Sequence record: OZ346187.1
Length of the DNA stretch: 64,000 nt
Strand: one strand, 5' to 3'
Origin: a phage
How positions within the stretch are numbered: position 1 is the first letter of the stretch; every line of letters begins with the position of its first letter. A program made the position numbers and the translations under genes. The notes below the pieces were generated by a model. The model saw nothing but the letters and a program-made list of their open reading frames with translations, did not search any database and had not been told where the DNA came from. This document shows, in pieces, positions 4,488 to 52,361 of the stretch.

Positions 4488-7400
4488 ATGAGTATGTGGA
4501 ATTTTGACTTTGAGGCCTCAGGTCTTCTGGACGAGGAAGATCTTTACTACCATTGTGGCCTGTTTAAAGAGTTGAATAAAAATAATTTTATGTTGTTTTT
4601 GCCTATCAATGATAGATCTCATTACAGTGAAGAGGAGGTTGAAAAAGCAAAACAATTTATGCTGGCAAAGCAAGATATCTATCCTAGCTGCTCTGTCCGT
4701 ATTGCGGATTTCAGCCAGCTTGAATGGTGGTTAACCGGGAACTCCGATTGGTCACCCACATCATTAAGTTGTCACAACTGTTTTAGTTATGACTTTATCT
4801 TGATGGAGAAGCTGTCTGGTATTCATTTTGATATGTTCCGTGATCCCAAGTGTATGGGGACAATCAATAATCATCAGGTGAACCTGTTCGACACTCTGCC
4901 AATGAGTCGTATACTATGGCCCGACAGACCGTTACCTAAAGGATGCCCTGATTCTGTATACAATCCTGTTACAAAACGTATGCAGCAGGTAGGTCCTCAT
5001 GGCCTAATGGCGTGGGGGTACGCTTTAGGAAACCAGAAGGTTAAAATTGATGACTGGAGAAATTTACCTCTGTGGAAGTATGTTGATCGTGTATTCGAGG
5101 ACGTTATCATCCAGGAGCTGCTCTGGAAAGAGCTGGTAGCGGAATCAAAAGGTGTATTCTACGGCAAATCTGACATGCAGAACTTTATGTACGATCCAGC
5201 CAAAGAGAAGCCGAAAGGGTTCAAGAAGATTACCTGGAAGAATGCATTACGCCGAGGCATGCTGCAGCACTTCCTGATGGAGCTGCAGGCCCGTCAGGGT
5301 GTATACTTCGACATAGATGGAGCTATTGCTTTACGTGACCGTTGCGATGCGTGGATGAAAGAAATCGCTGATCGTGTTGAACCACAACTACCTTTAAAAG
5401 AGCTGTCAATGTCTCAGCGGCCCAAGTTCCCTGAAAAGCCGTTTAACCAAGACGGGACAATCTCTAATAATGGTTGGAAATGGTTAAAAGATAAGCTTGG
5501 CTATCCTGTAGACATGAGTGCTTTAGAGTTCAAAGCCCCGCCTAAGCGAGCATTTACCTCTACAGGAGATGTCAGCAAGATGGGGATAAAATGGTGTGAA
5601 GAGATGGGCTGCAAAGACCCCGATAAGATGGCTGATTTCTTGAGAGGCTATATTAAGGGCACCTCCACACCACAACCCTTACCTAAAGAGCTGATGGATC
5701 AGGCAATAAGTGATCTGCAGCAGAAGCGAATGCCTGACTGCAAGATACCTATGAAAATCAGCAATCAGGACGACATCAAGCGATACCTAATCAGTGCTGG
5801 TTGGCTCCCAACAATGTGGAGAACTAAAGATGTAACTAAAGACAGCAAGAAGAAAGCTTTACCTGATGCAGATGTTGATGCACGAGTATATGCATATATG
5901 GACGAGCTTTTGGAGTCAGAGTATTGTGACCTAATTATCAACTTCTGGAACAAAACTGATGCTAAGTTCCAGACAACCGTGCACAAGTTCCGAAGCTTTC
6001 CTAACTCCGAAAGGATTAAAAAGGAAGTATTCGGGAAAATACGTAGAAAAGCCAGGGCACTTATTACTTCTCCGCAACTGAAAGATACGTTTGGACACCT
6101 ATGCCCAAATCTTGAAAAATTGAACGGAGAGATGGCTAAAGATATCGTCTTGTGGTTATCATTGCGAAACCGCAGATCGGTCCTTGATCCAATCAAGGAG
6201 GATAAGGTTGATACTGGTCTTCTTAATCACCCACGTTTGAAGATTGACCATAAGCTTCCTGCTAAAAGCTCTGGATTAACAAACACTTCCAGACAGAAAC
6301 ACAGTATTTGTGCAAACATGCCTAAACCATCTCCTAAAGTGGTTATGGGTAAAGAGATGCGTAGTCTGTGGGGTGTTCCTCCGGGATACTTTGAGATCGG
6401 TATTGACGGGTCCAACTTAGAGCAGCTTATCGGGGCTTGGGGTGCCTTTGAGTTCGACAACGGCCTGTATTATGATGTTGTAAGTAATGGCGATGCACAC
6501 TGTTATTCAGGAGATACACAAATTCTCACGGAGAAAGGGTGGGTGAGGTTTGAAGATCTTGATCCGGGAACACAAGTGTTCCAGTACGATCACAACACCT
6601 CGTCAATGAACCTTGTTACTCCATTAAATTACGTTAAGCGTAGTTATTGTGGGGATATGTATCATTTCCACAACAGTAGTGTGGATTTTATGGTTACAGA
6701 TCAACACAGGATGCTGACTGTGGATCACAGAAGCAATAAATTGTTTGAAGATTTGGCAAAAGACCTGAAAGCAGGTAAAGGGTCTAATTCAGGAAGAAGG
6801 TTTATCCATGCGGCAGAGTTTTATGGGAATACAACCTTATCTCCTGCCCAGGTTAATTTGCTTATTGCTATTCACGATGATGGGCACTTGCATACAAATA
6901 AGGACGGCAGCATCGTGTGCAGGATTCAGGTCGGAAAGGGAAGAAAAGTTGCAACGCTTTTAGATACTTTTTCTGCTCTAAGCCTTAGTTATGTAGAGCA
7001 GAGCGGGAAAACCACAAAAGGGGGCTTACTGGCGAGAAGGTTCCAATTCCACGTTCCGTCCTGGGTATTTGAGTTTTTGGACAACAATAAGGATTTCACC
7101 TATAACCTGATGAACCTTGATAAAGAATCTAAAAACCTGTTTATAGCTTCTTTATCTAACTGGGACGGGTGGGTATCTTCCGAAGGTGGAAAGGTTGCTT
7201 ACTACTCCCAGGCCGAGTGCAGGAAGAAATCTGTAGAGGTGGTGTCTGCGCTGGCTACTCAGTGTGGTTTACGGAATAATACGGTGGCGATTCACAAAAA
7301 AGGTCGTGCCGTGCAGCACAGAATCACAATTGGTAGCAAACAGAGAGCAGGGTTGCTGACACTATCTAAAGAGTCTGTCGAGGTGAGCGGTTCTTTGGTT

Positions 7401-7880
7401 TATTGCGTTACCGTCCCTTCTGGAGCAATCATTGTGAGAAGGAATGGTAAAGTGGCAGTGTGCGGTAACTGTAATAACGCCAAAGCTTACTCTTCTGTAG
7501 CAGGCAAGGAGATTTCCCGTAACGATGGTAAACCTATCACGTATGGGGTTATGTATGGGGCACAAAAAGATAAAGTTGCAGATATGCTGGACATCTCCCC
7601 AGAGTTGGGACAAAGGGTAATCGATGCACTCTGGGATGCCAACCCAGGTCTTAAGGGGCGCAAAGAGGATCTGGAGAAATTCTGGGAAGCAACAGGTAAG
7701 AAGTTTATCTACTCTTTTGATGGTCATGCTATCTGGACCCGATCTAAACACTCTTTACTTAATGCATACCAACAAAATGGCGGTGCATCGTTGTGTGACT
7801 TAGTTGGAATACTCATGCACCACCAGATGGTGAAGCGTGGGTGGTACGATGAAGGTGTTCGTCGTATTATTTATTACCAT
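4488..7880 (+). CDS. DNA polymerase, family A (T7 gp5-like), exon 1, containing an intein
   Basis: N-terminal FDFEASGL...YHCG exonuclease motif; motif A-like IDGSNLEQL; motif B-like RNDGKPITYGVMYGAQ; ORF stop at 7884-7886 is assigned to the intron. Confidence 0.8.
6501..7469 (+). mobile_element. intein with LAGLIDADG-type homing endonuclease, in-frame between polymerase motifs A and B
   Basis: Starts CYSGDTQILTEKG (intein block A); two LAGLIDADG-like motifs (LLIAIHDDGHL, FIASLSNWDGWV); ends ...VAVCGN followed by Cys at 7470; 969 nt, frame preserved. Confidence 0.65.
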
Positions 7881-8132
7881 AAATAACATTGTGGCTTCAT
7901 AGAGTAATCTATGTCGAATAACCTCTTTAACTGCGGGAAGCCTAAACCTTATGGCAAGGTAATCCGCAACGAAGCGCTCAAAAGAGCGAACGCTCAGAGG
8001 CCATTCCGAAAGGAAGTAGACCAGCAAGTGCGGTCGAAATGGGAGGATTCCTGTGGTTGCTTATCATAGGAATATGAGATGGTCCGATCCTACGTGAAAA
8101 CGTATGGCTATGCACGTAATGGTGCGGGGTAG
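7881..8132 (+). mobile_element. ORF-less group I intron in the DNA polymerase gene
   Basis: P-like CTGCGGGAAGCC and Q-like AATCCGCAACG elements; exon ends in U (7880) that can pair with GUGG 11 nt downstream (P1); ACGU-GAAA-ACGU hairpin near 3' end; last nt G (8132); joining 7880 to 8133 keeps frame. Confidence 0.55.
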
Positions 8133-8510
8133 CTTAACGACCTACCTGAACTATTGGATGAGTACCAACTTCAAGTGCCTGACACACCGAAGTATAAGAC
8201 TGTGTACACCTTCGACACAATTGAAGAACTGGAAGCATTTAAGGCAGAGCAGGAAGCCAAACTTCATGTGTTCGACGGTCATAAGTACAAAAAGGCACGC
8301 AAGGATGAGGACGGAAACGAAGTGGTTGACAGAGACGGAAACACGGTGTACGATCCTATCCTGAACGATGACGGAAAGCTTGAACTTATCTGGAGCCCTG
8401 TGGGTGAAATGGTGGTACATTGCTTCTGGCAAGCTTCTAAAATGATGGGAGTCCCGTTCCAGATCACAGGTGAATACTTGTGTGGTCGTAATTGGGGTGA
8501 TTGTCACTAA
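8133..8510 (+). CDS. DNA polymerase, family A, exon 2 (C-terminal)
   Basis: Frame open from 8133; C-terminus ...CGRNWGDCH resembles the Pol I-family terminus (GENWDQAH-like). Confidence 0.55.
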   Translation, partial: LNDLPELLDEYQLQVPDTPKYKTVYTFDTIEELEAFKAEQEAKLHVFDGHKYKKARKDEDGNEVVDRDGNTVYDPILNDDGKLELIWSPVGEMVVHCFWQASKMMGVPFQITGEYLCGRNWGDCH

Positions 8511-8559
8511 TGTAAACTATCAACACATGGAAGTGTTGTTGAGCAAAGAGGAGACTTTT

Positions 8560-8844
8560 ATGGTAGTAGAACCAACAAAAACATTTACATCCATGACTAT
8601 CCCTGTTATTATGCAGGTGGAGTGTGTTCAGGTATCTCAAGTGTGGCCTGGCACCAAAATCCCAACAGGGCCTGATTTCTTTCAGGTTGGGAAAGTGTAC
8701 AATGTCTGGAAGGCACCAGATTGTTACCCTTTCATTAAAGATGACCGTGGGATGCTGTGGTATCTTGGAAATGACTTGACACTGCACCTTGGGAATGCTA
8801 TTATTGCAGTATTCAGACTTAACAAGAAGGAGACCGATCAATGA
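8560..8844 (+). CDS. hypothetical protein
   Basis: ORF track 8470-8844; internal ATG at 8560 follows AGGAGAC RBS and lies after the polymerase stop. Confidence 0.35.
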   Translation: MVVEPTKTFTSMTIPVIMQVECVQVSQVWPGTKIPTGPDFFQVGKVYNVWKAPDCYPFIKDDRGMLWYLGNDLTLHLGNAIIAVFRLNKKETDQ

Positions 8845-9068
8845 CGACTTTGGTTAAAGCCACCTTTGTAGAAGAAAAGATGACAGACATGTCATTCTTT
8901 AAAGAAGGAAAGACCTACGAGGTTTATTCCGATAAAGCTCGTGCAAACAAAATGATTAAAGACGAGGAAGGGGTTGACTGGTATATCTCTCACCTGGCAA
9001 ACGGTGAGTATCATATCTACGGAACCACTTTGCTTGCCAAGTTTGTAGTTGTTGAAGAGGACCTATGA
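8841..9068 (+). CDS. hypothetical protein
   Basis: 75-aa ORF; start overlaps upstream stop. Confidence 0.4.
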   Translation: MTTLVKATFVEEKMTDMSFFKEGKTYEVYSDKARANKMIKDEEGVDWYISHLANGEYHIYGTTLLAKFVVVEEDL

Positions 9069-9259
9069 AAGTAAAGTATCTTGCTGAAGGTATGAATAGG
9101 TATTTTACCCTTGGTGAAGAATATTGGCCCTTTACAAACAACGGCGATGTCTACGTGAAAGATAATTTCGGCACGCCGTGGTTTCTGCACTCTAATGGGC
9201 TGGGATACTCCATTTACTGCGGTGCAGTGAACAACACAACTCTTGCAGAGTTCGTTTAG
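9065..9259 (+). CDS. hypothetical protein
   Basis: 64-aa ORF; start overlaps upstream stop. Confidence 0.35.
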   Translation: MKVKYLAEGMNRYFTLGEEYWPFTNNGDVYVKDNFGTPWFLHSNGLGYSIYCGAVNNTTLAEFV

Positions 9260-9269
9260 AGGAGGTAGG

Positions 9270-9641
9270 ATGTTAGTAAAAGGTACCCACACAGTCAAAC
9301 AACGTATTGAAGTTGAGATTGATGATTGTGAGCTGAAGCATATTTTACGGTCATGCTCCAACGTTTTGCTCCTTAGTATTCTTCAGGAGCGAGCGGAGAA
9401 CGAGTTCTTAAATGCATTGGCAGGCCGTCCCGGTGACTTCTGTGTGCGTAAGCGTGGTGACAACAAGTCGTGGTTGTGGGAGATCGATGCCGACTGGGAT
9501 TACCACAAAAATGAGGGTATAGATGAGCCTATTCGTGAACTGACGGACAAAGAGATTCAGATGTACAATGAAGTTTGTCATTGGGCAACACGCCAACAAA
9601 TTTACCTAGACCCTGTGTGGCTGATTGAAAATAGTCGTTGA
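9270..9641 (+). CDS. hypothetical protein
   Basis: ATG at 9270 preceded by GGAGG RBS; in frame with ORF 9243-9641. Confidence 0.4.
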   Translation: MLVKGTHTVKQRIEVEIDDCELKHILRSCSNVLLLSILQERAENEFLNALAGRPGDFCVRKRGDNKSWLWEIDADWDYHKNEGIDEPIRELTDKEIQMYNEVCHWATRQQIYLDPVWLIENSR

Positions 9642-9666
9642 CAAGAAGTAAGGTTAGATGTAAGAT
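9638..9666 (+). promoter_or_regulatory. sigma70-type promoter
   Basis: TTGACA, 17-bp spacer, TAAGAT. Confidence 0.5.
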
Positions 9667-9717
9667 ACTCCTCACAAACAGAGTATTGATTGTTAAATAA
9701 TTAAGGAGACCTCTAAG

Positions 9718-9945
9718 ATGAAAATCATGTTGAAACCAGAATGCGTTGCAAACGACCGAGCTTTTAAAGATTGCACACTTGGCGCTACTTATGAAGCAGA
9801 GTTTTGTGAGAACCCTTTGGTAAAAGCCCTTTTGGAAGAAGTACTTTATCACAAGAAGAGCTTGATGAGCTGGAAAACTCAGCACAGTGCCTTACCTTTA
9901 AAGATGATGAAGGAGACTCTGTCTGGTGCACTGTTAACGAAGTAG
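9718..9945 (+). CDS. hypothetical protein
   Basis: 75-aa ORF with AAGGAGAC RBS. Confidence 0.4.
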   Translation: MKIMLKPECVANDRAFKDCTLGATYEAEFCENPLVKALLEEVLYHKKSLMSWKTQHSALPLKMMKETLSGALLTK

Positions 9946-9971
9946 TTTTTGTAAAAACTGAACATTAATAC

Positions 9972-10000
9972 TTGACAACAGCGATAGGACCTAATACAAT
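9972..10000 (+). promoter_or_regulatory. sigma70-type promoter overlapped by a palindrome
   Basis: TTGACA, 17-bp spacer, TACAAT; inverted repeat GATAGGACC / GGTCCTATC brackets the -10. Confidence 0.5.
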
Positions 10001-10031
10001 GGTCCTATCAAAACGAAAGGGGACCACAGCA

Positions 10032-10292
10032 ATGACCAAACAATATCAACGAATTAAAGCCAAGGTTAAGCCAGACTATCTAGAGAAGGACTCTGCTTTT
10101 CGGGACTGCACAGCTGACAAAGTTTACACAGGGGCCGTCCTGTTGAACGATAAACTTGAAGTAGATGTGCTGGGTAAAGAGGCCGTTATCGAGGATGACA
10201 ACGGTGACTGTGTTTTCTGCACCACACGAGAGCTAGAAGTCTTAGAATATTTCGGTGAAATCTTCAACTCCTTAGACGACGAGGAAGCGTGA
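10032..10292 (+). CDS. hypothetical protein
   Basis: ORF track 9972-10292; ATG at 10032 follows AAAGGGGA RBS. Confidence 0.35.
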   Translation: MTKQYQRIKAKVKPDYLEKDSAFRDCTADKVYTGAVLLNDKLEVDVLGKEAVIEDDNGDCVFCTTRELEVLEYFGEIFNSLDDEEA

Positions 10293-10681
10293 TGAAAAAT
10301 ATTTGGGATATCGATATCTTTGAAGCCTCTAAGCTTGACGGTGCTGATGGAGTGATTATGGTGTCTGATGGCAAGGCAACACTAACTTCCGGAGATATCA
10401 TCTATGCCTTGGACGAGCTGGCGCTTCTGAAATCTACCGGTAACACTTTGGAGGAGCGTCTTCAAGGATTCGCTTTCAAAGAAGGTACAAATACAGCCAT
10501 GATGTGCACCACACGGACAGTTCAGGTTGGTAACGGTGTCTATATGATTATTGCTGTGTGTCCTAAATTCAGCAACGTCAACAAAGATGATGCTGACGCG
10601 GTCAACGATGTGGTTGTTCTCTTCGTGGGTGACGCTATGGCAGATCTGATGAATGCAGGAGAAGCAGCAAATGAAGACTGA
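10289..10681 (+). CDS. hypothetical protein
   Basis: 130-aa ORF, start overlaps upstream stop. Confidence 0.4.
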   Translation: MMKNIWDIDIFEASKLDGADGVIMVSDGKATLTSGDIIYALDELALLKSTGNTLEERLQGFAFKEGTNTAMMCTTRTVQVGNGVYMIIAVCPKFSNVNKDDADAVNDVVVLFVGDAMADLMNAGEAANED

Positions 10682-10973
10682 AAACATCACCCCAGCAGGG
10701 TTCTTAAAAGTATACCGTGAACTGCTATATACTACAGAGGACAGTGTTCTAGAGTATCCAGAATATCTTTTGCTGTATAAGTATCTGCAGGAGGCTGGTG
10801 AAAATCTGCCAGTTAGTGCAGAAGGTGGTCCAAACTGGATATACAGCGCATGGAGAAAGGTTGACATTCTCCCAGACCCAGGTAAAGATATGGTAGTTTG
10901 GCAGCTTATCAACAACATCGGGATTCCAATCTTTGATGAAGCTGTTAAAATCTATTTTGAACTTGACGATTAA
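10671..10973 (+). CDS. hypothetical protein
   Basis: ORF track 10653-10973; ATG at 10671 after GGAGAAG. Confidence 0.35.
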   Translation: MKTENITPAGFLKVYRELLYTTEDSVLEYPEYLLLYKYLQEAGENLPVSAEGGPNWIYSAWRKVDILPDPGKDMVVWQLINNIGIPIFDEAVKIYFELDD

Positions 10974-10990
10974 TATCAGGAGACCTTAAG

Positions 10991-11236
10991 ATGACTGAAG
11001 CAGTTGCTCGCGCAGGACAGAAAGTACGTTGTGTTGAAGTAGGTTTTGGTGGCAAAGGGTGTCAAAACTTGACTCAAGGCAAGGAATATGCTGTTATCTC
11101 TGGTGGTGGCGACGAAAGTATTGTGTTCGAGGGCCACATCCTGGATGCTGAAAACTTTGAAATCTTTGACGACGATGGGGATCCGATCACCTGCCTGCTG
11201 GACGGGAATTGGGGAACTTTCGAAGTGATTGGCTAA
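10991..11236 (+). CDS. hypothetical protein
   Basis: 81-aa ORF after AGGAGAC RBS. Confidence 0.4.
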   Translation: MTEAVARAGQKVRCVEVGFGGKGCQNLTQGKEYAVISGGGDESIVFEGHILDAENFEIFDDDGDPITCLLDGNWGTFEVIG

Positions 11237-11319
11237 CAAATACCTATTGTAATTTACAGAAGGGGATGCTAAAATAGTGTCTCCTTCTATGTTGTTCAAA
11301 TAAAATCGGAGATTCCATA

Positions 11320-11688
11320 ATGGAACAAATGAACGATCAAGAGTCGGTTGCGATGAACGAGCAAGAACAACCTCAAGAATTTTTCTTAGGGTTAAGTAAA
11401 GATCAAGTGTCTCTTTTGCTAGTGCTTTCTTCTTTCATGGGAAGACTTCAGGAGCTCACACAACAACCGGAGGCTGAACAATTATTTCAGGCTCTGCGTG
11501 AAGAAGAAAAATATCGTCGTTTGGACTATGCCTTAGGTTGGGTAGCTCAACAACGAGATATGCTGATGGCCCTCTCTGGGACCACAAGTTTTGCAATGGG
11601 CCTGTTGGCTCAAGTTCAGGACAAATTAATTCAAGCAGGGTTTGCACACACGGCAAACACTAACGAAGAACAAGGAGACAAAGAATGA
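11320..11688 (+). CDS. hypothetical protein
   Basis: 122-aa ORF after GGAGA RBS. Confidence 0.4.
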   Translation: MEQMNDQESVAMNEQEQPQEFFLGLSKDQVSLLLVLSSFMGRLQELTQQPEAEQLFQALREEEKYRRLDYALGWVAQQRDMLMALSGTTSFAMGLLAQVQDKLIQAGFAHTANTNEEQGDKE

Positions 11689-12911
11689 GCGTTATTCAAC
11701 AATTCGCTAACCCGATGAATCCGCGTGAAACTGTTTTACTGGCTCACGGCATGATTAAACGCGTCAGCATCAAGCCTATCAAAGGTGCTGATCCTACAAC
11801 AGGTATTAAAACCACTGTGTGGCAAGGTAAGAAAATTGAATCCAGCCACACCATCTCTTTACTGATTTCTGAACTGGATTCCTCTGATAACCTACTTCAA
11901 GGTGGTGAAGAAGTTTGGATCAGTATGGGCGATAAGCTGCTTAAACCGGGTCATCAAGACTCTGTCTCTGTTAAAATTGATGACAAGTGGGAAACCGTAA
12001 CGCCAGGATGGATCGTAAATATCCCTTTGAAGGCAAACGAGCATAACGGTAAGACCTACTACAAAGGCTCACTGGCTAAGATGGTTAAGCTGGGTGCAGG
12101 AGAGGCTCCAGCAGCGACTCAGCAGCAAAAACAGCAACAAGGTGCACAATCACAAGGCCAGAAGCAGAAACCTCAGCAGAATGCCAATCAGGACGTTTTA
12201 CGCATCTATGGTGATGTGACTCAGATTGTTGGCAACGTGGTTACTGTAAATGACCACAAGATTGGCGAAGGTGCTATGGTTGTAACTGATGAGCAGCTTA
12301 AAGACCTGGTGGTAGGTGGTCGTGTTGCAGCCATTGTTGACAAAGACACTGGAAACATTATCAGTGGTTTCAAGGCCTATCCTCCTAAGGCAGAGAACGG
12401 CACTCAAGGCTCCGGTGGCAAGCGTAAATCCTCTTACGACCCTATCGGTGTGGAAACGGGGCATAGCATCAATGCGTTGCAGATCATCCTGGATCGCGGG
12501 TTTAAGGTAGACGACCCACTGGGCGTGGCTAAAACACTGCACGTAGTCACCATTGAGCTTAAGAAAGAGTATGCTCAAGCCACCAACCGAACTGAAGATG
12601 AAGTAGGTGCCAGTGTCGGTAATGCGGTGTTGAACGCTTGTCGCCGTATTGACAAGAAAACGAAAGTTGATGATTTTGCAGCGGCAATTACTGCAGAAGC
12701 AAAAGATGTCTTGACTAATCTGGCTGAGCCGTTGTACGATTGGATCAAGAACGGTGCTGGGTCAACTGACCATCAAGAACCTCAGGCTGCCAAACAGGAA
12801 GCAGCTCCACAGCAAAACACTGTAGACGCTCCTCCTGTAAATGATGGGGAAGATGACCCGATGGATCAGAATCCAGCACAGTACGCCTTTGATGATGACA
12901 TCCCTTTTTAA
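11685..12911 (+). CDS. putative single-stranded DNA-binding-like protein with SSB-type acidic C-terminal tail
   Basis: 408 aa; Q-rich low-complexity linker (QQQKQQQGAQSQGQKQKPQQ); terminates ...FDDDIPF, the canonical bacterial SSB tail. Confidence 0.4.
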   Translation: MSVIQQFANPMNPRETVLLAHGMIKRVSIKPIKGADPTTGIKTTVWQGKKIESSHTISLLISELDSSDNLLQGGEEVWISMGDKLLKPGHQDSVSVKIDDKWETVTPGWIVNIPLKANEHNGKTYYKGSLAKMVKLGAGEAPAATQQQKQQQGAQSQGQKQKPQQNANQDVLRIYGDVTQIVGNVVTVNDHKIGEGAMVVTDEQLKDLVVGGRVAAIVDKDTGNIISGFKAYPPKAENGTQGSGGKRKSSYDPIGVETGHSINALQIILDRGFKVDDPLGVAKTLHVVTIELKKEYAQATNRTEDEVGASVGNAVLNACRRIDKKTKVDDFAAAITAEAKDVLTNLAEPLYDWIKNGAGSTDHQEPQAAKQEAAPQQNTVDAPPVNDGEDDPMDQNPAQYAFDDDIPF

Positions 12912-15931: not shown

Positions 15932-16121
15932 GCTTAAATCTGCATGGAACATCGCTGTGGGGGACGAGATCCGCATCCCAGGTGGAAAGACCATTATGAA
16001 GATATCTCGTATCGAGTACGAAGGTGATCGTGTATTTCATATCTTTGCAGAAGATGGTCGAGAAATTTATATACAGGCAGGCTCTCACATCTATATTCGT
16101 AAGAAAGGGGACGACAAATGA
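15924..16121 (+). CDS. hypothetical protein
   Basis: ORF track 15858-16121; ATG at 15924 after AAGGAGGG. Confidence 0.35.
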   Translation: MFKLKSAWNIAVGDEIRIPGGKTIMKISRIEYEGDRVFHIFAEDGREIYIQAGSHIYIRKKGDDK

Positions 16122-16447
16122 CAGAGATCATCATTTCAACTGCAGGGTATGTGTTCCTGACAATCATTGCACTGACCATTTTGGTGGTGGTATATGGAAT
16201 TGTTATTCTCCCTATTCTTGAGACAATTAGTTTGTGTCGGTGTTGGAGAAAGGCTTACGGTCCACAGCCGTGGAAGGACTGGCCCCACCTGGTGCACATA
16301 GCGTTCTCTTATGCTTATGATCACGCCAGCAGTGCATGCATAACCGGGTATCACGCCCACAACTGGAGCTGGGAAGGGTTGAGGAAATGGAATGTTACAA
16401 AGACCATACCTCTGCGCATGTACAAACCTAAAAACAAAGACAGCTGA
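16118..16447 (+). CDS. small membrane protein
   Basis: N-terminal hydrophobic stretch YVFLTIIALTILVVVYGIVILPIL; last plus-strand gene before the junction. Confidence 0.4.
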   Translation: MTEIIISTAGYVFLTIIALTILVVVYGIVILPILETISLCRCWRKAYGPQPWKDWPHLVHIAFSYAYDHASSACITGYHAHNWSWEGLRKWNVTKTIPLRMYKPKNKDS

Positions 16448-16758
16448 TACTTGAAAATCCCTGGCATATCAAGTGTAAGGAGGATTTCTAAAATGGATTT
16501 CCTCCTTTTGATATTTCACCGGGCCAGATATTTTAAAATTCTTAGAAAATCAGGTCTTTGAAATGAAAAACAGATCGAGTACCGAAAGAGGATGTACAAA
16601 TTTTCTGATAATAATGGACTTATTGTTATAAAAGGTCAGAGGTAAGCTGGGAAAGTTCTGGTAGAAGGGTGAGAGTATGTGCGGAAAAATCTGGAATAGT
16701 GACTTAAAGTACGGTGCGAACGATAAGGAATTGAGCAGCACATCTTATCGTGCCTGTA

Positions 16759-17149
16759 TTTTGTGTGGATGAATGAGAATACCTATCATTGTGAGAACCA
16801 TTATCATTACGGGCAATTTAACAGTACCGATTATGCGCACCACTGGCGATACATACAGGGATTGATAACATGGGTTACTGTTTACGCACATAACAATTGT
16901 ATTTCTTACTATTTGTGTGGGCGTTTAGACGTTGACGGTCAGAAGTCTGCAGGTTAATATCTAATCTATTGGCTGCTAACTATATCCCACACAAATAGTA
17001 AGAAATACAATTGTTATGTGCGTAAACAGTAACCCATGTTATCAATCCCTGTATGCATGCCAGTGGTGCGCATAATGGGTATTATGTTAAATTGCCCGTA
17101 ATGATAATGGTTCTCACAATGATAGGTATTCTCATTCATCCACACAAAA
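16759..17149. repeat. large imperfect inverted repeat (two ~163-bp arms, 16759-16921 and 16986-17149, 64-bp spacer)
   Basis: Right arm is the reverse complement of the left with a few substitutions; mirror ORFs 16763-16957(+) and 17014-17205(-) give the same peptide; spacer holds TTGACG, 17 bp, TAATAT. Confidence 0.85.
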
Positions 17150-17379
17150 TAGATTGCAAATGTTGTGCCACTGTGTGAACGGCCTGGCCTATTAATTTGC
17201 CTCACTGCCTTGATATTTGAGAATTATTATAAGAATGAGAAGTATTCCCATTTCGTCCGCCTGGCAGCACTCCTGTAGGTCCTGCAAGGACTCTAGCTGA
17301 AAGCTAGACCCTTCGGGCCTCCCTGCAGGTCAGGTCAAAATCGTGGTAGAATTGGGCCTGTTCAGATATTTCTGGCTGA

Positions 17380-18590
17380 CTCTTCAGGTCTGTGTGGGAA
17401 AAGCCAACCTCTCCGGCGGGGCATGGGGTCATGACGGGAAAATTGCAGGTCAATTAAAAAATTTACGTGGTGTATGAAGCGCTCTTCAGGTAAGGCAGGT
17501 ATTATGGGATGAAACCCTCTTCAGGCAATGATATTTGTGGGTGTGATATTTGCTGGAAAGCCAGATATGACGGGACTCCCGGCGGGGCAGGGGTAGTACA
17601 GACAGGGAAAATATGGAGGATGTGGTTGGGTAAATTGATCAGGCAGGTAGAGTATGGAATATGTTACAGGTATGTTAAATAGGGAGGCTGAATATCTGTA
17701 GGATTTGTGTGTAAAATCAAAGACTTAAGTGGTGTTGTGGTATTTTCTATAAATAATTCAAGTTTAATAGGTAATATTTGTCTCTATTCGCTTTGTGTGG
17801 TAAACAGATTCAGATGAGATTGGTTTACAAGTGTATACATAATATACAAATTAAAGATACAAGAAACCCCCCTCCCCCTTCGGCTACCATTCACCTTTTC
17901 CTCTGACTGGTACTTAAACACTTATTCAGACTCTTCAGGTTATCACCCATATATCATATGGCAGTGACTGGTGTCCTCCGGCCCCTCTTTCGTCACCCGT
18001 CCGCTTCGCCATGCTAATGCCATAGCCAATGGTTCGGTTGTTCACCCTGTTCACTCAGGTGTATCTCCATACCCCTTCAAACCGAAGAGAACAGAAAACC
18101 CGAATTACTCGGTAAAAGAAAAGAGAAGAACTTAATTTTATCAGGATAGGCAAGAATGTCAAGGCATGACTGCTCACTAAACAAGCAAACAGTCATGTGT
18201 GGAAGGTAAGTGATTGTGGTGGTAGGAAATTTAGTTGAAAGATGTGTTATAGGTGCTTCCAGCACTTTAGCCGGGCAGCTAATTGTGTGTCAGTCCAGCG
18301 GTTCATCCTCTACTTCACTGAAATCAATGTTCATGGTCTCTTCCCAACCATCGATCTCAGCACAAGAGTGGAGTTCTTTAGGGTTTACTCCCAAAGCCTC
18401 AGCAACAGAGTCTATATTTAACACCTCTGGCAGGTATGATTCATCGAATTCAAGGTAAATCAGGCCACGAGTGTTGTCAGCTCCACCAAATATCTCTATC
18501 TTCATGAAATCTCCTCTGGAAATGAGAGTGTGAACAGGGTTTTATACGTTCTAATGCACAGGAATTATACACGTTTGCCTCTTCAGGCCA
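17380..18590. repeat. repeat-rich non-coding junction with recurring CTCTTCAGG 9-mer
   Basis: CTCTTCAGG at ~17380, 17482, 17516, 17931, 18579; related blocks CCGGCGGGGCA(T/G)GGGT at 17412 and 17578 and GGCAGGTA at 17493 and 17643; several short hairpins. Confidence 0.6.
18290..18505 (-). CDS. small acidic protein
   Basis: 71 aa, strongly acidic (D/E-rich); RBS-like AGAGGAGA upstream. Confidence 0.4.
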   Translation of the reverse strand: MKIEIFGGADNTRGLIYLEFDESYLPEVLNIDSVAEALGVNPKELHSCAEIDGWEETMNIDFSEVEDEPLD

Positions 18591-32015: not shown

Positions 32016-32116
32016 ACTGTCCTTCTCTCTGTTTTGTCCGATAATAATATCTAAAGCTTACCTATTTGTCAACAACTGTTTTAGATATTTAAGGGTGGAA
32101 TAACCACCCTTCTGTA

Positions 32117-32905
32117 TTACTCGGAAACAGGGGTCCAAATATGGTTTGCACGATCCTCAATAAGATTGAGTGCGATCTGACGACCCAACCCGGAACGAAC
32201 GACATCGTCTGGACTATCAAAGCTGATCATTCCAACCTCAGGATCTGGATGACGAGTAAAGAAATCCGTCACCCATGCAAGGCCAGATTTACCAGGGATG
32301 TCACGTTGGCTATTATCACCCATAATTACAAGGGTGGCCTGATCAGAGATCCTTGTGATAATTGACAACATTTCTTCAGGGTTAGTTTGCTGTGCCTCGT
32401 CAATCAGGACAAAGCATCGCTCATCGAAACTACGACCACGAATGCTTTCAACTTCACAAATCTCGATACGACTGTTCTGACCGTCTCCCAGCATTGCGGC
32501 AAAAGCACCTTTGCCAACACGACGACAAATCGTGTCCATCATGCTTCGAAGATAGGGCCACAGTTTCTGCATTGCATTTCCGGGTTTAAATCCTGAAGTC
32601 TTTCCTGTCTGGACGTAAGGACGTGCAACAATGATCTTATCAATCTCGTTCTTACGCAGAAGATCACCTGCATATGCAGATGCCATAAATGTCTTACCGG
32701 ATCCAAACACACCGTTTACAATAATAATCTTACGTGACCCCAGATAATCAAGATACTTTTGCTGCTTCTTATTCATTGGTCGGAGAGCTGGAGCGGTGTG
32801 CTCTCTTTCGTCAGCAAATTTCTCAGCAGCCTTACGCAGGCGATCAGATTTGCGAGCCTCTCTAGCTTCATCACGCATGCGTTTTGTTTCTTTAGCTCGA
32901 CCCAT
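32117..32905 (-). CDS. phoH: PhoH-like ATPase
   Basis: Walker A GVFGSGKT; overall PhoH-like organisation. Confidence 0.7.
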   Translation of the reverse strand: MGRAKETKRMRDEAREARKSDRLRKAAEKFADEREHTAPALRPMNKKQQKYLDYLGSRKIIIVNGVFGSGKTFMASAYAGDLLRKNEIDKIIVARPYVQTGKTSGFKPGNAMQKLWPYLRSMMDTICRRVGKGAFAAMLGDGQNSRIEICEVESIRGRSFDERCFVLIDEAQQTNPEEMLSIITRISDQATLVIMGDNSQRDIPGKSGLAWVTDFFTRHPDPEVGMISFDSPDDVVRSGLGRQIALNLIEDRANHIWTPVSE

Positions 32906-33467: not shown

Positions 33468-33941
33468 TTAGTCAACCTGAACCCAACCACCTGCTGCCTT
33501 TTTAAACATTCTTTGGTTATCACTACCTCTGAAGGGTTTTTTGGTTGGGTTATCTTTTTCGTACTTACCATCCATAATGTAATCGACACTATCTTTAATG
33601 TAATCGGGAACCTCTTCAAACAAATACCCTGTGTACACCCAGATAGTTTTTGTGTTGCCGAAGTGTTCACGGATAGCGCTAATGATCGAGTACATACCCT
33701 CAATATTGTAAGGCGCTAAAGGTTCGCCACCGCATAATGTAACGCCAGTAATGTGTTTCGGCTCTATAGAGTGAAGTATACTCTCAATAGTGTCATTTGT
33801 TAACGGTTCCCCTTTAGCTGGTGACCAAACACTTTTGTTTTGGCAACCGACGCAGTGATGTGGGCAACCAGAACAGAACACCGTTGTCCTAATGCCTGGG
33901 CCGTCAACCATGCTACACTCTATAATATTAACAACATTCAT
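33468..33941 (-). CDS. nrdG: anaerobic ribonucleotide reductase activating protein (radical SAM)
   Basis: Cys cluster CPHHCVGC with preceding CSG; ~157 aa; adjacent to nrdD. Confidence 0.7.
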   Translation of the reverse strand: MNVVNIIECSMVDGPGIRTTVFCSGCPHHCVGCQNKSVWSPAKGEPLTNDTIESILHSIEPKHITGVTLCGGEPLAPYNIEGMYSIISAIREHFGNTKTIWVYTGYLFEEVPDYIKDSVDYIMDGKYEKDNPTKKPFRGSDNQRMFKKAAGGWVQVD

Positions 33942-34174
33942 TCCTTATCCTCTTTTAGGTAAGGATATTCAGGCCCACAATAAGCTCTATCCAAGAAAAC
34001 AGCTTCTTCCCCTCTGGAATCAGTAGATCTATAATACCCATCACCATGGTAACTAACGAACCAGTGGCACCCATCATCGCTTTCTACTGTTGTGGCTCTG
34101 TCCGAATGAAAGATAATTTCGTAATCCTTACCGAATGTAAACCATCTGTTAGCTTTTACACAGACACCTATCAT
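33938..34174 (-). CDS. hypothetical protein
   Basis: 78-aa ORF. Confidence 0.35.
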   Translation of the reverse strand: MIGVCVKANRWFTFGKDYEIIFHSDRATTVESDDGCHWFVSYHGDGYYRSTDSRGEEAVFLDRAYCGPEYPYLKEDKE

Positions 34175-34505
34175 AAGGAACCTCTCTTCTGTGGTGTGCT
34201 TCTATTCAAGATAAACCTATAAAAGTCCATTTGATGAAGCCGTATAACTTTTTATACTTACGCTTCAGTGCTAACAATTTTATCTTGATTTTCTTGATAG
34301 ATTCCCGCATTTCGACCCCTTATGCTTATAAGTACTCCGCATCGCATTCAGGGCAATGCCAAATAAAATCGTCCAGTGCCTTGCACCAACGAAGATTGCA
34401 ACGACAACCACACTTGCAAATTTTATAAATACCTTTAGACATACTGTACCCCCCAGCTCACTGTGTGTCAATAATATGCCACATCCTTGTGGCTTTTGTC
34501 AAGTA

Positions 34506-35768: not shown

Positions 35769-36565
35769 CTGTCTCCTCCCTGTGTTTCCACAGGGCCAGA
35801 CTATCTATTACTCTACTTCAATAAGATAATAACCCTTTATTGTGAGATGCTTACCTTCGGCATTTCCTTCGATAGCCCTGTGAACGTTACCTACGTTCAA
35901 ATTTAAGGCTTTTGCACAGGCGTAGAGTGAAGGATATTCACCCACCAAGATTTTCCCTTTGTATGCCTGCACTTTCCTATAGCACTTACCTGGACAAAGT
36001 CCTGTTCGGAAAGCATGTCTCTTATTATCTTCCGGCAAAACCCACTCTAGGTTAGACGGATGATCATTCAATGTATTGCCATCTTTATGATTCACTTCCC
36101 AGTTTTCAGGGTCTTCTGGGACATCTGGCAAACAATACAAGGCAACAACCCTTGAGGTTTGGATTCGAATCTTTTTACCTTTGTGGTTGAAAGAGTACAT
36201 ATAACGGCGTTTAACATGCTTATTACCTTTTCCATAACCTCCCCACAATATTGGGTGCAGCATTCCACGTTTTCCGTATACGTTTCCAACTTCATCAATC
36301 ACATAGTTTGATTCTTCACCATTAAGAATGATCTTTTTCATAGAGCCTCTCCATTTCGAAGTTAGTATTTCAACTAACCCCTACACTACTTGGTTCAGAA
36401 ATGTTTGTCAAGCATCTCTGCCTTTCGTTAGTCGTTACAACCGTTCCAACTCCTGTAAGAACTAGTCACGGGATTGGCATAGCTTTCGCCTTAGCGTTCC
36501 CCGTTAGCCGGATTTACCGACCCCTCTTATGAGGTTAGGAGAGTTTTACAACGGCCAGTTTGTTA
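35769..36565 (-). mobile_element. group I intron in nrdD carrying an HNH homing endonuclease gene
   Basis: On minus-strand RNA the exon 1 end AACGGU pairs with GCCGUU 8-13 nt into the intron (P1, U.G at the splice site); Q-like AAUCCGGCU, R-like GUUGUAACGACUAAC, S-like AUAGAUAGUCU overlapping the HEG stop; CCCUGUGG-AAAC-ACAGGG hairpin; intron ends in G; splicing gives ...SVNG|QTPF... in frame. Confidence 0.7.
35808..36341 (-). CDS. HNH homing endonuclease (intron-encoded)
   Basis: NHKDGNTLNDHPSNLEW HNH motif; 177 aa; lies inside the nrdD intron. Confidence 0.7.
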   Translation of the reverse strand: MKKIILNGEESNYVIDEVGNVYGKRGMLHPILWGGYGKGNKHVKRRYMYSFNHKGKKIRIQTSRVVALYCLPDVPEDPENWEVNHKDGNTLNDHPSNLEWVLPEDNKRHAFRTGLCPGKCYRKVQAYKGKILVGEYPSLYACAKALNLNVGNVHRAIEGNAEGKHLTIKGYYLIEVE

Positions 36566-50005: not shown

Positions 50006-50302
50006 TCAAGACTTTTTAGTCTTTCTTGGAGAGCTTTTTGTTGATCTTTTCCTTTTGTGGTAGATTCCAAGTGCAGCGTTTTCTTGGGCGCACGTTTTAA
50101 CAGTTCTCAGAGAAGAACTTTCAGCTTTAGGCAGGTTTAACTCCCACCAACCGAGCCAGTAAAGTTCTGATTCCGACAGCTGCTCAGATTCAGCCTTCCG
50201 ATACAATGATTGCATACCTCTAATGATGTCGTCCAGAGGTGTATCGAATACAAAAGCTGTCTTATCAAATTTCTCTTTTACAGGTTTCTTAGCCATGCTC
50301 AC
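50006..50302 (-). CDS. hypothetical protein
   Basis: 98-aa ORF, basic C-terminus. Confidence 0.4.
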   Translation of the reverse strand: MSMAKKPVKEKFDKTAFVFDTPLDDIIRGMQSLYRKAESEQLSESELYWLGWWELNLPKAESSSLRTVKTCAQENAALGIYHKRKRSTKSSPRKTKKS

Positions 50303-51173
50303 CTCTCACACAATCATCCACTGACTTCATAAACTCTTGCACCCAAAGTGCCCCTATTTGAGGAACTATGGCGTTACCGAAGCCTTTGTGGCGAGACAAT
50401 CCCATTGGGGTGGATAGCCCATCAACCAACAAGGGAATGCCGGGTTCAGGAAGTTTACGCCATTTTCCGTCTCGGCATAGATACTGTCTTGTATGCTCCC
50501 ACACCCGTAATACATCCTCACCTGCTCCCACAGATTCCCAGGACTTAATGACTTCCTGCCAGTTGCTAAGCGTTGTTGCTTGCGCCTTTCCATCGCTTCC
50601 TGAGATCTGCACCCTACCTGAGTTACCGTAGGGGTTAACCACGTTGCTAACTGCCCCGAAGTAAAGTCGTTCGCGGCGGTGCGGGGCGTTGAGGATTGCA
50701 GCATTAAGTATGGAAGCCCCGAAGCTGTAACCAGCGTTTTCCATTTCATTCTGCATATCGTCGAGCCATCCGGATTCAATCGCTTTTGCAACCTGCTCTC
50801 CAAACATGAACTCAGGTTTAAGCTGTTTAACGAGCCGGAGGTATGTTGGTGCAAGATGTCTTGGGTCAAATTTTCCACGTTGCTTACCTGCTTGAGAGAA
50901 AGGTTGGCAGCACGGAGATCCTGTGCATACCGACCAAGTTTCTGGAATGCCAGCAAGTTTCAAGGCCAAAGGCCATCCACCTATACCAGCGAAGAAGTGC
51001 CACTGTGTGAAACCTCTAAGATCTTCTACAGTAACCTCTGTAATAGAACGATCATCCACCTCGCCTTGAGGAAGTAGTCCTAAAGATATTAGATTCTTCA
51101 ACCAAGCAACTGCATCTTTATCATTGTCATTGTAGTATACCACACTTAATTCTCCAAATACTGATGTATCCAA
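50289..51173 (-). CDS. cytosine-5 DNA methyltransferase
   Basis: Motif I FAGIGG, motif IV GSPCCQPFSQAG, motif VI-like FGEQV, motif VIII-like HRRERL, motif X-like GFGNAIV. Confidence 0.7.
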   Translation of the reverse strand: MDTSVFGELSVVYYNDNDKDAVAWLKNLISLGLLPQGEVDDRSITEVTVEDLRGFTQWHFFAGIGGWPLALKLAGIPETWSVCTGSPCCQPFSQAGKQRGKFDPRHLAPTYLRLVKQLKPEFMFGEQVAKAIESGWLDDMQNEMENAGYSFGASILNAAILNAPHRRERLYFGAVSNVVNPYGNSGRVQISGSDGKAQATTLSNWQEVIKSWESVGAGEDVLRVWEHTRQYLCRDGKWRKLPEPGIPLLVDGLSTPMGLSRHKGFGNAIVPQIGALWVQEFMKSVDDCVRGEHG

Positions 51174-51890: not shown

Positions 51891-52361
51891 TCAATCCAGG
51901 ACAACGCCACCTGCTTTTTTAAACACATCGATCAACTTCTCGATCTTCTGTTCATGCTGACCATATCCAGCACCAGGTAGCGAAGCCCAGCGGGAACGGC
52001 ATTTGTGGATAGCTTCGTGGATACGCCCTTCGTCAATGTCAGCGAGAGCCTTGCACTCACGGATCAGTTGCAACGCAATCTTGTCCTGACTGGCAGGGCC
52101 AAAATCTGGTAATCCTAGCTGCTTCATATAGTGTTTAGCGAACTTCTCCAAAACCTGGTAACGCCCAGCAGCGGAGGAGGTAAGTTTAGCATTTAGCTTA
52201 ACGTAAACACCGGGATGCTTGCTGTAATCGCTGAACAGCTTGCCACCGACTATGACATCGTATCCACGATCCTTGGTAGGTTGTCTACCATTATCTGTGC
52301 CTTCCGAATATGCGATCATATCCAAGAAAGCTTTTCGTTGAACATTTTTATCAAGTTTCAT
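51891..52361 (-). CDS. endolysin, lambda R-type lytic transglycosylase
   Basis: Near-collinear with lambda R: AFLDMIAYSEGTDNGRQPTKDRGYDVIVGG ... RYQVLEKF ... ASLPGAGYGQHE. Confidence 0.85.
   Translation of the reverse strand: MKLDKNVQRKAFLDMIAYSEGTDNGRQPTKDRGYDVIVGGKLFSDYSKHPGVYVKLNAKLTSSAAGRYQVLEKFAKHYMKQLGLPDFGPASQDKIALQLIRECKALADIDEGRIHEAIHKCRSRWASLPGAGYGQHEQKIEKLIDVFKKAGGVVLD

What the first reader, a model, noticed from the sequence alone, without database searches (positions are those of the whole stretch)
16759..17149. Large imperfect inverted repeat with an internal promoter: potential long dsRNA hairpin
Two ~163-bp arms separated by 64 bp are near-perfect reverse complements, producing mirror-image ORFs on opposite strands. 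The spacer contains TTGACG, 17 bp, TAATAT oriented into the right arm. A read-through plus-strand transcript would fold into a ~160-bp duplex, and a spacer-initiated transcript would be antisense to the left arm. This could be a regulatory RNA, a replication or packaging signal, or a recombination hotspot.
Basis: seen in the sequence. Interest (0 to 1): 0.6.

Follow-up and report, generated by a model that had tools for sequence, protein, structure and literature searches.

The report
Fold-back rearrangement scar in phage terminal repeat
The large inverted repeat is real, but it is a one-off scar of a DNA rearrangement (a 165-bp inverted duplication joined to a 12.4-kb deletion) inside the terminal repeat of an rV5-like coliphage, not a conserved regulatory RNA.

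Summary
Arms 16757-16921 and 16986-17151 (165/166 nt, 96.4% complementary) flank a 64-nt spacer, and the fold z-score is -34.

The window is an rV5-like Vequintavirus. In more than 120 phage records and 30 further contigs, only the spacer and right arm exist, as a single copy inside the 458-459-bp direct terminal repeat. The left arm is private to this genome.

It sits at the junction of a 12.4-kb deletion. That deletion removes about 28-32 small early ORFs, about 1 kb of non-coding DNA and the first 108 bp of the terminal repeat. A neighbouring 203-bp segment (16554-16756) is also inverted.

Two of the three junctions lie exactly on short inverted repeats that pre-exist in the relatives: TGTGTGGG/CCCACACA around the spacer, and an AGAAAATC core after the upstream gene. 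A single-copy spacer bounded by short inverted repeats next to a deletion is the classic signature of fold-back template switching.

The spacer "promoter" is a 9/12 consensus match, and its -35 hexamer comes from a private 2-bp deletion. No Rfam or PHROG family matches, and the mirror-image ORFs are by-products of the duplication.

A library or assembly chimera cannot be excluded without reads, but it is unlikely because 8-bp overlaps are too short for assemblers to join. Interest is low to moderate.

The parts
16118..16447 (+). Gene 'A' (109 aa), the last intact + strand early gene before the rearrangement
   Evidence: ORF list. The identical protein is found on 309 blocks of public contigs, and all 10 contigs inspected continue into the normal early-gene block. 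It is 99% identical in DNA to SophiaRose/Murica-type phages.
16461..16509 (+). Intrinsic-terminator-like hairpin followed by a U-run, downstream of gene A; native and conserved
   Evidence: RNA fold -27 kcal/mol, z = -3.5. The sequence is identical in ECP2309 and FV3.
16535..16553 (.). Junction J1: native short imperfect inverted repeat 'p' (AAAATTCTTAGAAAATCAG). Homology to every relative stops at 16553, and the perfect 8-bp core AGAAAATC is shared with the reverse complement of the far end of segment B
   Evidence: This 19-nt stretch aligns both to the end of A (plus strand) and to the far end of B (minus strand) in the relatives.
16554..16756 (-). Segment B': an inverted copy of the ~200-bp non-coding segment that directly follows gene A in relatives. 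It is FV3/ECP2303-type, 86-90% identical
   Evidence: All 75 phage records that contain it, and 20 further contigs, have it in the opposite orientation relative to A and D.
16756..16757 (.). Junction J2: B' joined to the outer end of the inverted arm, with 1 bp of perfect microhomology or an imperfect 4 bp (AATA/AAGA)
   Evidence: Sequence comparison. The junction string is absent from all public collections scanned.
16757..16921 (-). Left arm: a private 165-bp inverted duplicate of the terminal-repeat segment 16986-17151
   Evidence: It shares lineage-specific variants with the right arm. It is absent from 120 phage records and 16 aligned loci, which carry the segment only once per terminal-repeat copy.
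16914..16921 (.). Junction J3: native TGTGTGGG, complementary to CCCACACA at 16986-16993. This is the fold-back site, where homology to relatives resumes
   Evidence: TGTGTGGG is invariant in 16/16 relatives and CCCACACA is present in 12/16. BLAST homology to relatives starts at 16913/16914.
16922..16985 (+). Single-copy 64-nt spacer (the fold-back loop). It is native terminal-repeat sequence and contains the promoter-like TTGACG-17-TAATAT at 16932-16960, whose -35 arises from a private 2-bp deletion
16986..17151 (+). Right arm: the native copy, part of the Vequintavirus direct terminal repeat
   Evidence: 91-97% identical and collinear with relatives. It carries two private changes at 17056-17058.
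16914..17261 (+). The retained 348 bp (corresponding to 351 of 459 bp) of the direct terminal repeat. The right boundary is at 17261|17262. The first 108 bp and the left boundary are deleted
   Evidence: Alignment to the Gotham repeat_region 1-459. Terminal repeats of 458-459 bp are reported in PMC6563267 and PMC7471380. The left-boundary 22-mer is absent from the window.

Best explanation
The inverted repeat is a mutational scar, not an evolved element. In the lineage of this rV5-like phage, DNA synthesis running leftward through the terminal repeat folded back at a native 8-bp inverted repeat (TGTGTGGG ... 64 nt ... CCCACACA). It then copied 165 nt of the strand it had just made, which created the left arm and left the 64-nt loop as a single-copy spacer. 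Synthesis next jumped about 12 kb to the non-coding segment B with almost no microhomology, and copied it in the same, now inverted, sense for about 200 nt. It turned back onto the original strand at a second native short inverted repeat (core AGAAAATC) just after gene A. The net result is A - B(inverted) - arm(inverted) - spacer - arm. About 12.4 kb is lost: 28-32 small early ORFs, about 1 kb of non-coding DNA and the first 108 bp of the 459-bp terminal repeat. Shown directly: the three junctions, their microhomologies, the deletion, the single-copy ancestral state and the private origin of the left arm. Inferred: that one replicative template-switch series caused it. The alternatives are two successive events, or fold-back of a resected free genome end, which lies only 108 bp from the 8-bp repeat. 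As secondary, unselected consequences, the palindrome could extrude as a hairpin or cruciform (an SbcCD substrate) and could give an RNase III-sensitive duplex if transcribed.
For: (1) The window is collinear with SophiaRose except for homing-endonuclease/intron indels and this one junction, where 12,438 bp are replaced by 359 bp. The same gap of about 11.9-12.7 kb is seen against APECc02 and other relatives. (2) The missing block is nowhere else in the window. (3) The spacer and right arm are native and lie inside the annotated 459-bp terminal repeat. (4) The left arm is absent from 120+ phage records, 16 aligned loci and 30 contigs found by exact flanking proteins. (5) Both arms share variants that most relatives lack, so the copy was made within this lineage. 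(6) J3 and J1 coincide with short inverted repeats already present in the relatives; the chance of an 8-nt match at a fixed position is about 1.5e-5 for each. (7) A single-copy spacer bounded by short inverted sequences, next to a deletion, is the published fold-back signature (PMC3907307). Sequential template switches at short inverted repeats are documented (PMC10766183). (8) Private mutations cluster in the rearranged DNA: 5 of 5 private columns on the right side fall within 16914-17151 and none within 17152-18280, and there are further private changes in the left arm. This fits error-prone repair synthesis. (9) The early block is deletion-prone: rV5_ev146 keeps only 5.4 kb of it.
Against: No reads are available, so the junctions are not independently verified. 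No sibling genome with the same junctions was found in any collection. The deletion removes the left boundary of the terminal repeat, which might be expected to impair end formation and raises the question of whether this exact molecule is a viable phage. The clustered private indels could equally be consensus errors in a hard-to-sequence palindrome. The window's segment B' is only about 90% identical to its nearest relative, so its inversion could be an older, separate event.
Confidence: 0.72

Rival explanations
1. Sequencing-library or assembly artefact. Snap-back or chimeric molecules formed in vitro (for example by strand-displacing amplification or end repair of single-stranded ends) were built into the consensus at a real or apparent gap, so the palindrome does not exist in the phage.
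For: Template-switch chimeras made in vitro also join at short inverted repeats. The junction is unique to this sequence. It lies next to the physical genome end, where assemblies are often uncertain. Three private indels cluster in the palindrome. The lost terminal-repeat boundary makes viability questionable.
Against: Overlaps of 8 bp, 8 bp and 1-4 bp are far below any assembler's k-mer or overlap length, so junction-spanning molecules must have dominated the reads. Three coordinated chimeric junctions plus complete loss of 12.4 kb from an otherwise collinear, intact assembly would need several coincident errors. Both arms carry different derived changes while each keeps the ancestral state where the other is mutated, which is unlike a simple copy-paste chimera.
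Confidence: 0.15
2. The palindrome now has a role in genome end formation or replication. For example, a hairpin inside the terminal repeat primes duplication of the repeat, or the inverted copy of a terminase-binding site compensates for the lost left boundary.
For: It lies wholly inside the terminal repeat, and the native left boundary plus 108 bp are gone, so end formation must work differently if the phage is viable. In rhesus CMV, an inverted duplication next to a pac-like site replaced about 11.8 kb and changed genome isomerisation (PMC7864422).
Against: There is no conservation. The native 8-bp repeat with its loop folds no better than shuffled sequence (z = -1.6). Nothing in the sequence identifies a terminase site. 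The structure is fully explained as a by-product of the rearrangement.
Confidence: 0.06
3. An evolved regulatory RNA: a long dsRNA hairpin or an antisense pair driven by the spacer promoter.
For: The predicted RNA hairpin is extremely stable. A TTGACG-17-TAATAT site faces the right arm. A strong promoter-like site at 18162-18135 on the minus strand could also send transcripts towards the palindrome.
Against: The structure exists in one genome only. The -35 hexamer is private and the match is only 9/12, within chance expectation for the region. There is no meaningful Rfam hit. A terminator-like hairpin sits upstream on the + strand. No target or partner gene is evident.
Confidence: 0.03
4. A mobile element (MITE/IS-like) bounded by terminal inverted repeats that inserted here.
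For: Only the general shape: two inverted arms around a short core.
Against: The right arm and spacer are native, collinear terminal-repeat sequence in all relatives. There is no target-site duplication, no transposase, and no other copy in the window.
Confidence: 0.01

Closest known systems
Fold-back inverted duplication adjacent to a deletion ('inv-dup-del'), as characterised at human breakpoints (Hermetz et al. 2014, PMC3907307)
   Same: An inverted and a non-inverted copy are separated by a single-copy spacer. Short inverted sequences pre-exist at the spacer boundary. A deletion lies immediately next to the inverted copy.
   Different: The scale differs: 165-bp arms and a 64-bp spacer here, against kb-to-Mb arms and kb spacers there. 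This case is in a phage terminal repeat, and a second inverted segment (B') makes it a three-junction event. No dicentric or breakage-fusion-bridge stage applies.
[quoted passage not shown] 2024, PMC10766183); quasipalindrome template switching in E. coli (own knowledge: Ripley, Lovett)
   Same: Two strand switches occur at short pre-existing inverted repeats (8-bp cores), producing inverted junctions without long homology.
   Different: The outcome here is a net deletion with a small inverted duplication, not an interstitial triplication. No origin is involved. The middle switch (J2) uses almost no homology.
Inverted duplication replacing ~11.8 kb next to a pac1-like site in experimentally evolved rhesus cytomegalovirus (Child et al. 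2021, PMC7864422)
   Same: In both, a linear dsDNA virus copied sequence from the packaging or terminal region in inverted orientation, and this replaced about 12 kb of dispensable internal genes.
   Different: There the duplicate is 6.8 kb, includes a selected gene (rTRS1) and arose reproducibly under selection. Here it is 165 bp of non-coding DNA with no evident selected cargo, and its origin is unknown.
Long DNA palindromes as SbcCD/hairpin substrates in E. coli and lambda (PMC3315005, PMC4245961; own knowledge: Leach)
   Same: It is a >150-bp near-perfect interrupted palindrome replicating in E. coli, so it is expected to be prone to hairpin formation and cleavage.
   Different: The 64-nt spacer and six arm mismatch/indel columns should greatly reduce extrusion. 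No stability data exist for this phage.
Vequintavirus 458-459-bp direct terminal repeat (Korf et al. 2019, PMC6563267; Dias et al. 2020, PMC7471380)
   Same: Window 16914-17261 is 92-95% identical to the corresponding 351 bp of the repeat, including its right boundary.
   Different: The first 108 bp and the left boundary are missing, replaced by an inverted copy of an internal part of the repeat.

Membership tests
Fold-back inverted duplication with adjacent deletion | Inverted and direct copies separated by a single-copy spacer | tested here: met
   The 64-nt spacer 16922-16985 is single-copy and native.
Fold-back inverted duplication with adjacent deletion | A short inverted repeat pre-exists in the unrearranged sequence at the spacer boundary | tested here: met
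   TGTGTGGG is present in 16/16 relatives and CCCACACA in 12/16, at exactly the arm/spacer boundaries.
Fold-back inverted duplication with adjacent deletion | Deletion directly adjoining the inverted copy; derived state absent from relatives | tested here: met
   12,438 bp are missing relative to SophiaRose. The left arm is absent from 120+ records and 30 contigs.
Fold-back inverted duplication with adjacent deletion | Junctions verified in physical molecules (reads or PCR) | not testable with these tools
   No reads or samples are available, and the junction strings were found in no other public assembly.
Structured regulatory RNA (cis-antisense or long-hairpin RNA) | Structure conserved, ideally with covariation, among relatives | tested here: not met
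   The relatives have only one arm, so no hairpin is possible.
Structured regulatory RNA (cis-antisense or long-hairpin RNA) | Match to a described RNA family | tested here: not met
   The Rfam E-value scan of 16400-17500 gave only a 22-bit hit to a family with a gathering score of 120.
Structured regulatory RNA (cis-antisense or long-hairpin RNA) | A dedicated promoter and transcript | tested here: inconclusive
   The promoter-like site matches 9/12, is within chance expectation, and its -35 is private to this genome. Transcription itself is not testable here.
Vequintavirus direct terminal repeat | Homology to the mapped 458-459-bp repeat | tested here: met
   16914-17261 aligns to Gotham repeat positions 351-1 at 95% identity.
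Vequintavirus direct terminal repeat | A complete repeat with both boundaries | tested here: not met
   The first 108 bp and the left boundary are absent from the whole window.
Vequintavirus direct terminal repeat | Physical ends and two-fold read coverage | not testable with these tools
   This needs reads or virion DNA.
Transposable element with terminal inverted repeats (IS/MITE) | Target-site duplication, multiple copies, insertion relative to empty sites | tested here: not met
   There is no flanking direct repeat of 3-12 bp and no other copy in the window. The 'empty site' in relatives already contains one arm and the spacer.

The most novel reading that the evidence does not exclude
The phage is viable with a terminal repeat that has lost its native left boundary and 108 bp and now contains a 395-bp palindrome. 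That would mean Vequintavirus end formation needs only signals on the retained side, or that the new hairpin or inverted terminase-site copy takes part in generating the ends. It would be a natural experiment on how fixed-end terminal repeats are made in large myoviruses.
Probability: 0.07. Interest if true: 0.6.

Novelty: new member of a known kind. Interest (0 to 1): 0.25.

Why it matters
If the junctions are real, this is a cleanly resolved natural example, at base-pair level, of fold-back template switching in a virulent phage. It shows that about 12 kb of the rV5-type early-gene block (28-32 small ORFs of unknown function) and a quarter of the terminal repeat can be lost in one event. That is useful to anyone minimising or engineering Vequintaviruses for therapy, and to those studying how fixed terminal repeats are cut. 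For annotation, it warns that the mirror-image ORFs and the 'promoter' here should not be called as genes or regulatory elements. It opens no new class of biology.

Tried and rejected
(1) I looked for the same junctions elsewhere. Exact J2 and J3 strings were searched in viral contigs, metagenome contigs and genome contigs. A megablast of 16500-17200 was run against 5,426 E. coli genomes. The two junction-spanning ORF products were looked up by exact sequence. All were empty.

(2) I tried to find the source or a sibling genome through exact flanking proteins. The 30 contigs inspected all have the normal arrangement.

(3) Translocation of the 12-kb block within the window: rejected.

(4) A known RNA family: rejected.

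(5) Real genes in the arms: no PHROG hits, and most records annotate nothing there.

(6) A transposon or MITE: rejected, with no target-site duplication and a native arm.

(7) A simple inversion of the whole B-to-D interval followed by deletion: rejected, because the order in the window is B' then D', the opposite of what an inversion would give.

(8) The native 8-bp repeat and loop as a conserved structured element: not supported (z = -1.6).

(9) The arm-specific variants as natural polymorphisms acquired by recombination: rejected, because none of 120 records carries them.

(10) A literature search for rV5_ev146 found nothing. One search failed on a term that was too short.

Full report
OBSERVATION. 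The inverted repeat is real and far beyond chance. The repeat finder gives three collinear blocks: 16757-16823/17085-17151, 16825-16847/17059-17081 and 16849-16921/16986-17058. A global alignment gives arms of 165 and 166 nt with 161 identical columns of 167 (96.4%). The 3 mismatches and 3 gap columns are all clustered mid-arm, and the spacer is exactly 64 nt. As RNA, the region folds to -297 kcal/mol against -104 +/- 5.7 for shuffles (z = -34). The mirror-image ORFs are an automatic consequence of the repeat and match no PHROG family. TTGACG-17-TAATAT is at 16932-16960 and faces the right arm, but it is a 9/12 match in a region with no excess of promoter-like sites (7 found, 5.5 +/- 2.1 expected).

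CONTEXT. The window is an rV5-like Vequintavirus coliphage, with more than 120 related records at 90-99% identity. It is collinear, in reverse orientation, with phage SophiaRose over its whole length. The exceptions are homing-endonuclease/intron indels and one junction, where SophiaRose 108083-120521 (12,438 bp, 32 annotated small CDS) is replaced by window 16554-16912. The same gap is seen in other relatives: 11.9-12.7 kb in APECc02, OR062525 and several 'Campylobacter phage' records, and 5.4 kb in rV5_ev146. The missing block is not elsewhere in the window. GC skew and ORFs show that the locus is the roughly 1.8-kb non-coding gap between the + strand early genes, which end at 16447, and the - strand genes, which end at 18290.

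THE RIGHT ARM AND SPACER ARE NATIVE TERMINAL-REPEAT DNA. Phage Gotham is deposited as a linear molecule with a 459-bp repeat_region at position 1-459. Window 16914-17261 aligns to Gotham positions 351-1. EdH4, HdK5 and ECP2309 start at the same base, and ECP2303 ends exactly 108 bp beyond window-equivalent 16914. The literature reports 458-bp terminal redundancies for EdH4 and HdK5 and 459-bp terminal repeats with a fixed packaging start for Gotham (PMC6563267; PMC7471380). The window therefore retains the right boundary of the repeat (17261|17262) and the equivalent of 351 of its 459 bp. The first 108 bp and the left boundary are deleted, and that boundary sequence is absent from the whole window.

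THE LEFT ARM IS PRIVATE. In 16 aligned relatives the arm occurs once. In 120 phage records a 71-nt probe from either arm hits one place per terminal-repeat copy. I found thirty further public contigs through exact matches to three flanking proteins, and all have the normal arrangement. Junction-spanning strings and junction ORF products are absent from IMG/VR, JGI metagenomes, GTDB genomes, complete E. coli genomes and the exact-protein index. Both arms share variants that most relatives lack (for example AAATACAATTG), so the copy was made within this lineage.

ANATOMY OF THE JUNCTION. In window orientation, the relatives read A - p - g - B - p' - [about 12 kb early block C] - x - m - S - D - y - E. 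Here p/p' is an imperfect 16-19-bp inverted repeat (AAAATTCTTAGAAAAT / ATTTTCTGAAAATTTT). The pair m/m' is TGTGTGGG / CCCACACA, with m' being the first 8 nt of D. S is the 64-nt spacer, and x is the first 108 bp of the terminal repeat.

The window reads A - p - rc(B) - rc(D) - S - D - y - E. The three junctions are:
- J1 (16553/16554) lies on p/p', with a perfect 8-bp core AGAAAATC.
- J2 (16756/16757) has 1 bp of perfect microhomology, or an imperfect 4 bp.
- J3 (16921/16922) lies on m/m'. TGTGTGGG is invariant in 16/16 relatives and CCCACACA is present in 12/16.

Segment B is in the opposite orientation in all 75 phage records that contain it and in 20 further contigs. A simple inversion of the interval cannot give the observed order of B' before D'.

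MECHANISM. Read on the minus strand, the new DNA is rc(D), rc(S), then D forward, then B forward, then rc(A). This is what a polymerase moving leftward would produce with three switches. It folds back at m/m' and copies its own product for 165 nt. It then jumps about 12 kb with almost no homology while still moving in the inverted sense through B. Finally it turns back at p/p'.

A single-copy spacer bounded by pre-existing short inverted sequences, next to a deletion, is the published fold-back signature (PMC3907307). Sequential template switches at short inverted repeats are experimentally supported (PMC10766183). A viral analogue exists in rhesus CMV, where an inverted duplication from the terminal region replaced about 11.8 kb next to a pac-like site (PMC7864422).

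Two variants cannot be distinguished here. In the first, B inverted earlier by recombination at p/p' and a single fold-back-plus-deletion followed. In the second, a resected physical genome end folded back. The end lies only 108 bp from m, so x would be the trimmed 3' flap. That would be followed by replication of the hairpin-capped end and illegitimate recombination.

Private mutations are concentrated in the rearranged DNA. A 2-bp deletion in the spacer creates the TTGACG -35 hexamer. T>C plus a deleted C occur at 17056-17058 in the right arm. G>C, T>C and a 2-bp deletion occur in the left arm. On the right side, 5 of 5 private columns fall within 16914-17151 and none within the next 1,129 bp. 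This fits error-prone repair synthesis (own knowledge: break-induced and microhomology-mediated replication are mutagenic). It would equally fit consensus errors in a palindrome.

FUNCTION. I found no evidence of an evolved function:
- The structure is not conserved.
- No Rfam family matches; the only hit scores 22 bits against a gathering score of 120.
- The promoter's -35 is private to this genome.
- The native m-S-m' stem-loop is no more stable than shuffled sequence (z = -1.6).
- A conserved terminator-like hairpin (16461-16509, z = -3.5) separates the upstream operon from the palindrome.

Secondary consequences are plausible but untested. The palindrome could extrude as a hairpin or cruciform and be attacked by SbcCD (PMC3315005, PMC4245961). 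If read through from either side, it could give an RNase III-sensitive duplex; a strong promoter-like site at 18162-18135 on the minus strand points towards it. Loss of the left boundary may also alter how the terminal repeat is formed.

ARTEFACT? This cannot be excluded without reads. Overlaps of 8, 8 and 1-4 bp are too short for any assembler to join, so junction-spanning molecules must have dominated the data. Three coordinated junctions plus complete loss of 12.4 kb in an otherwise intact, collinear assembly are hard to obtain by error. The two arms also carry different derived changes, each keeping the ancestral state where the other is mutated. I put a real in-vivo rearrangement at about 0.72 and an artefact at about 0.15. 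A new role in end formation gets about 0.06, a regulatory RNA about 0.03 and a mobile element about 0.01.

VERDICT. The feature is a new instance of a known kind of event, a fold-back inverted duplication with an adjacent deletion, in an unusual place: a phage terminal repeat. Interest is 0.25. The most novel reading still open is that the phage is viable with a truncated, palindrome-bearing terminal repeat, which would be informative about Vequintavirus end formation (probability about 0.07).

Noticed in passing
window 7871-8106 (+): Group I intron (Rfam RF00028, 64.7 bits against a gathering score of 50). It lies in a stretch (about 6500-8015) where the window differs from SophiaRose, whose DNA polymerase gene region is interrupted by an HNH endonuclease gene. 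Intron and homing-endonuclease content is therefore polymorphic among these phages.
   Followed up: partly
window 61631-61729 (+): An unusual 99-nt tRNA-like gene within the 7-tRNA cluster. ARAGORN calls it 'tRNA-???' with a 4-base anticodon (atcc), and Rfam scores it 35.5 bits as a tRNA. The SophiaRose record annotates its homologue as 'tRNA-Stop(tta)'. It is a possible suppressor or frameshift-type tRNA, or a degenerate gene.
   Followed up: no
window 18162-18100 (-): A near-consensus sigma-70 promoter-like site (TTGACA, 16 nt, TAAAAT, with an upstream TG; 11/12) points towards the terminal repeat. It is followed within about 25 nt by a terminator-like hairpin (18112-18100). This could be a very short transcript or an attenuator in the non-coding region next to the genome end.
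   Followed up: no
window 16561-16587; ECP2309/FV3 loci L007/L008 (window orientation 1736-1762 and about 1665-1700): A 22-27-nt motif (AAATGAAAAACAGATCGAGTACCGAAA) occurs twice in the ~1-kb non-coding region between gene A and the early block in the relatives. It may be an operator or regulatory repeat. In the window the retained copy is inverted with segment B.
   Followed up: no
window 16553/16554: A sharp mosaic boundary. DNA to the left is 99% identical to SophiaRose/Murica-type phages, whose segment B is only 68-73% identical to the window's. The window's B' is closest (86-90%) to the FV3/ECP2303 type, whose gene A is only 92-93% identical. The short inverted repeat p may be a recurrent recombination point.
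   Followed up: partly
window 17262-17340 (+): Immediately outside the right boundary of the terminal repeat lies a highly conserved GC-rich stretch with small hairpins (for example CTAGCTGAAAGCTAG, flanked by CCTGTAGG/CCTGCAGG-like words). It is a candidate terminase or end-recognition region.
   Followed up: no
window 32085-32769, 33579-34477, 35809-36427, 50296-51167, 51897-52320: Presence/absence differences against SophiaRose. They coincide with GIY-YIG and HNH homing-endonuclease genes inserted in the nrd, PhoH and neighbouring genes of SophiaRose.
   Followed up: partly
GenBank MG0656xx records ('Campylobacter phage' C15, A12a, A142, D1 and others): About 18 records labelled as Campylobacter jejuni phages are 94-99% identical to rV5-like coliphages across this region. 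The host labels are probably wrong, or the records represent contaminating coliphages.
   Followed up: no
L006 (rV5_ev146, LR699804.1) 7072-12488: This 'evolved' rV5 derivative retains only 5.4 kb of the ~12-kb early block, so the block lost in the window is independently deletion-prone and at least partly dispensable.
   Followed up: partly
window 17474-17493 and 17509-17528 (+): A 20-nt direct repeat (ATGAAGCGCTCTTCAGGTAA / ATGAAACCCTCTTCAGGCAA, 85% identical) spaced 35 nt apart, in the non-coding region right of the terminal repeat. Some records annotate tandem repeats in the same non-coding neighbourhood.
   Followed up: no
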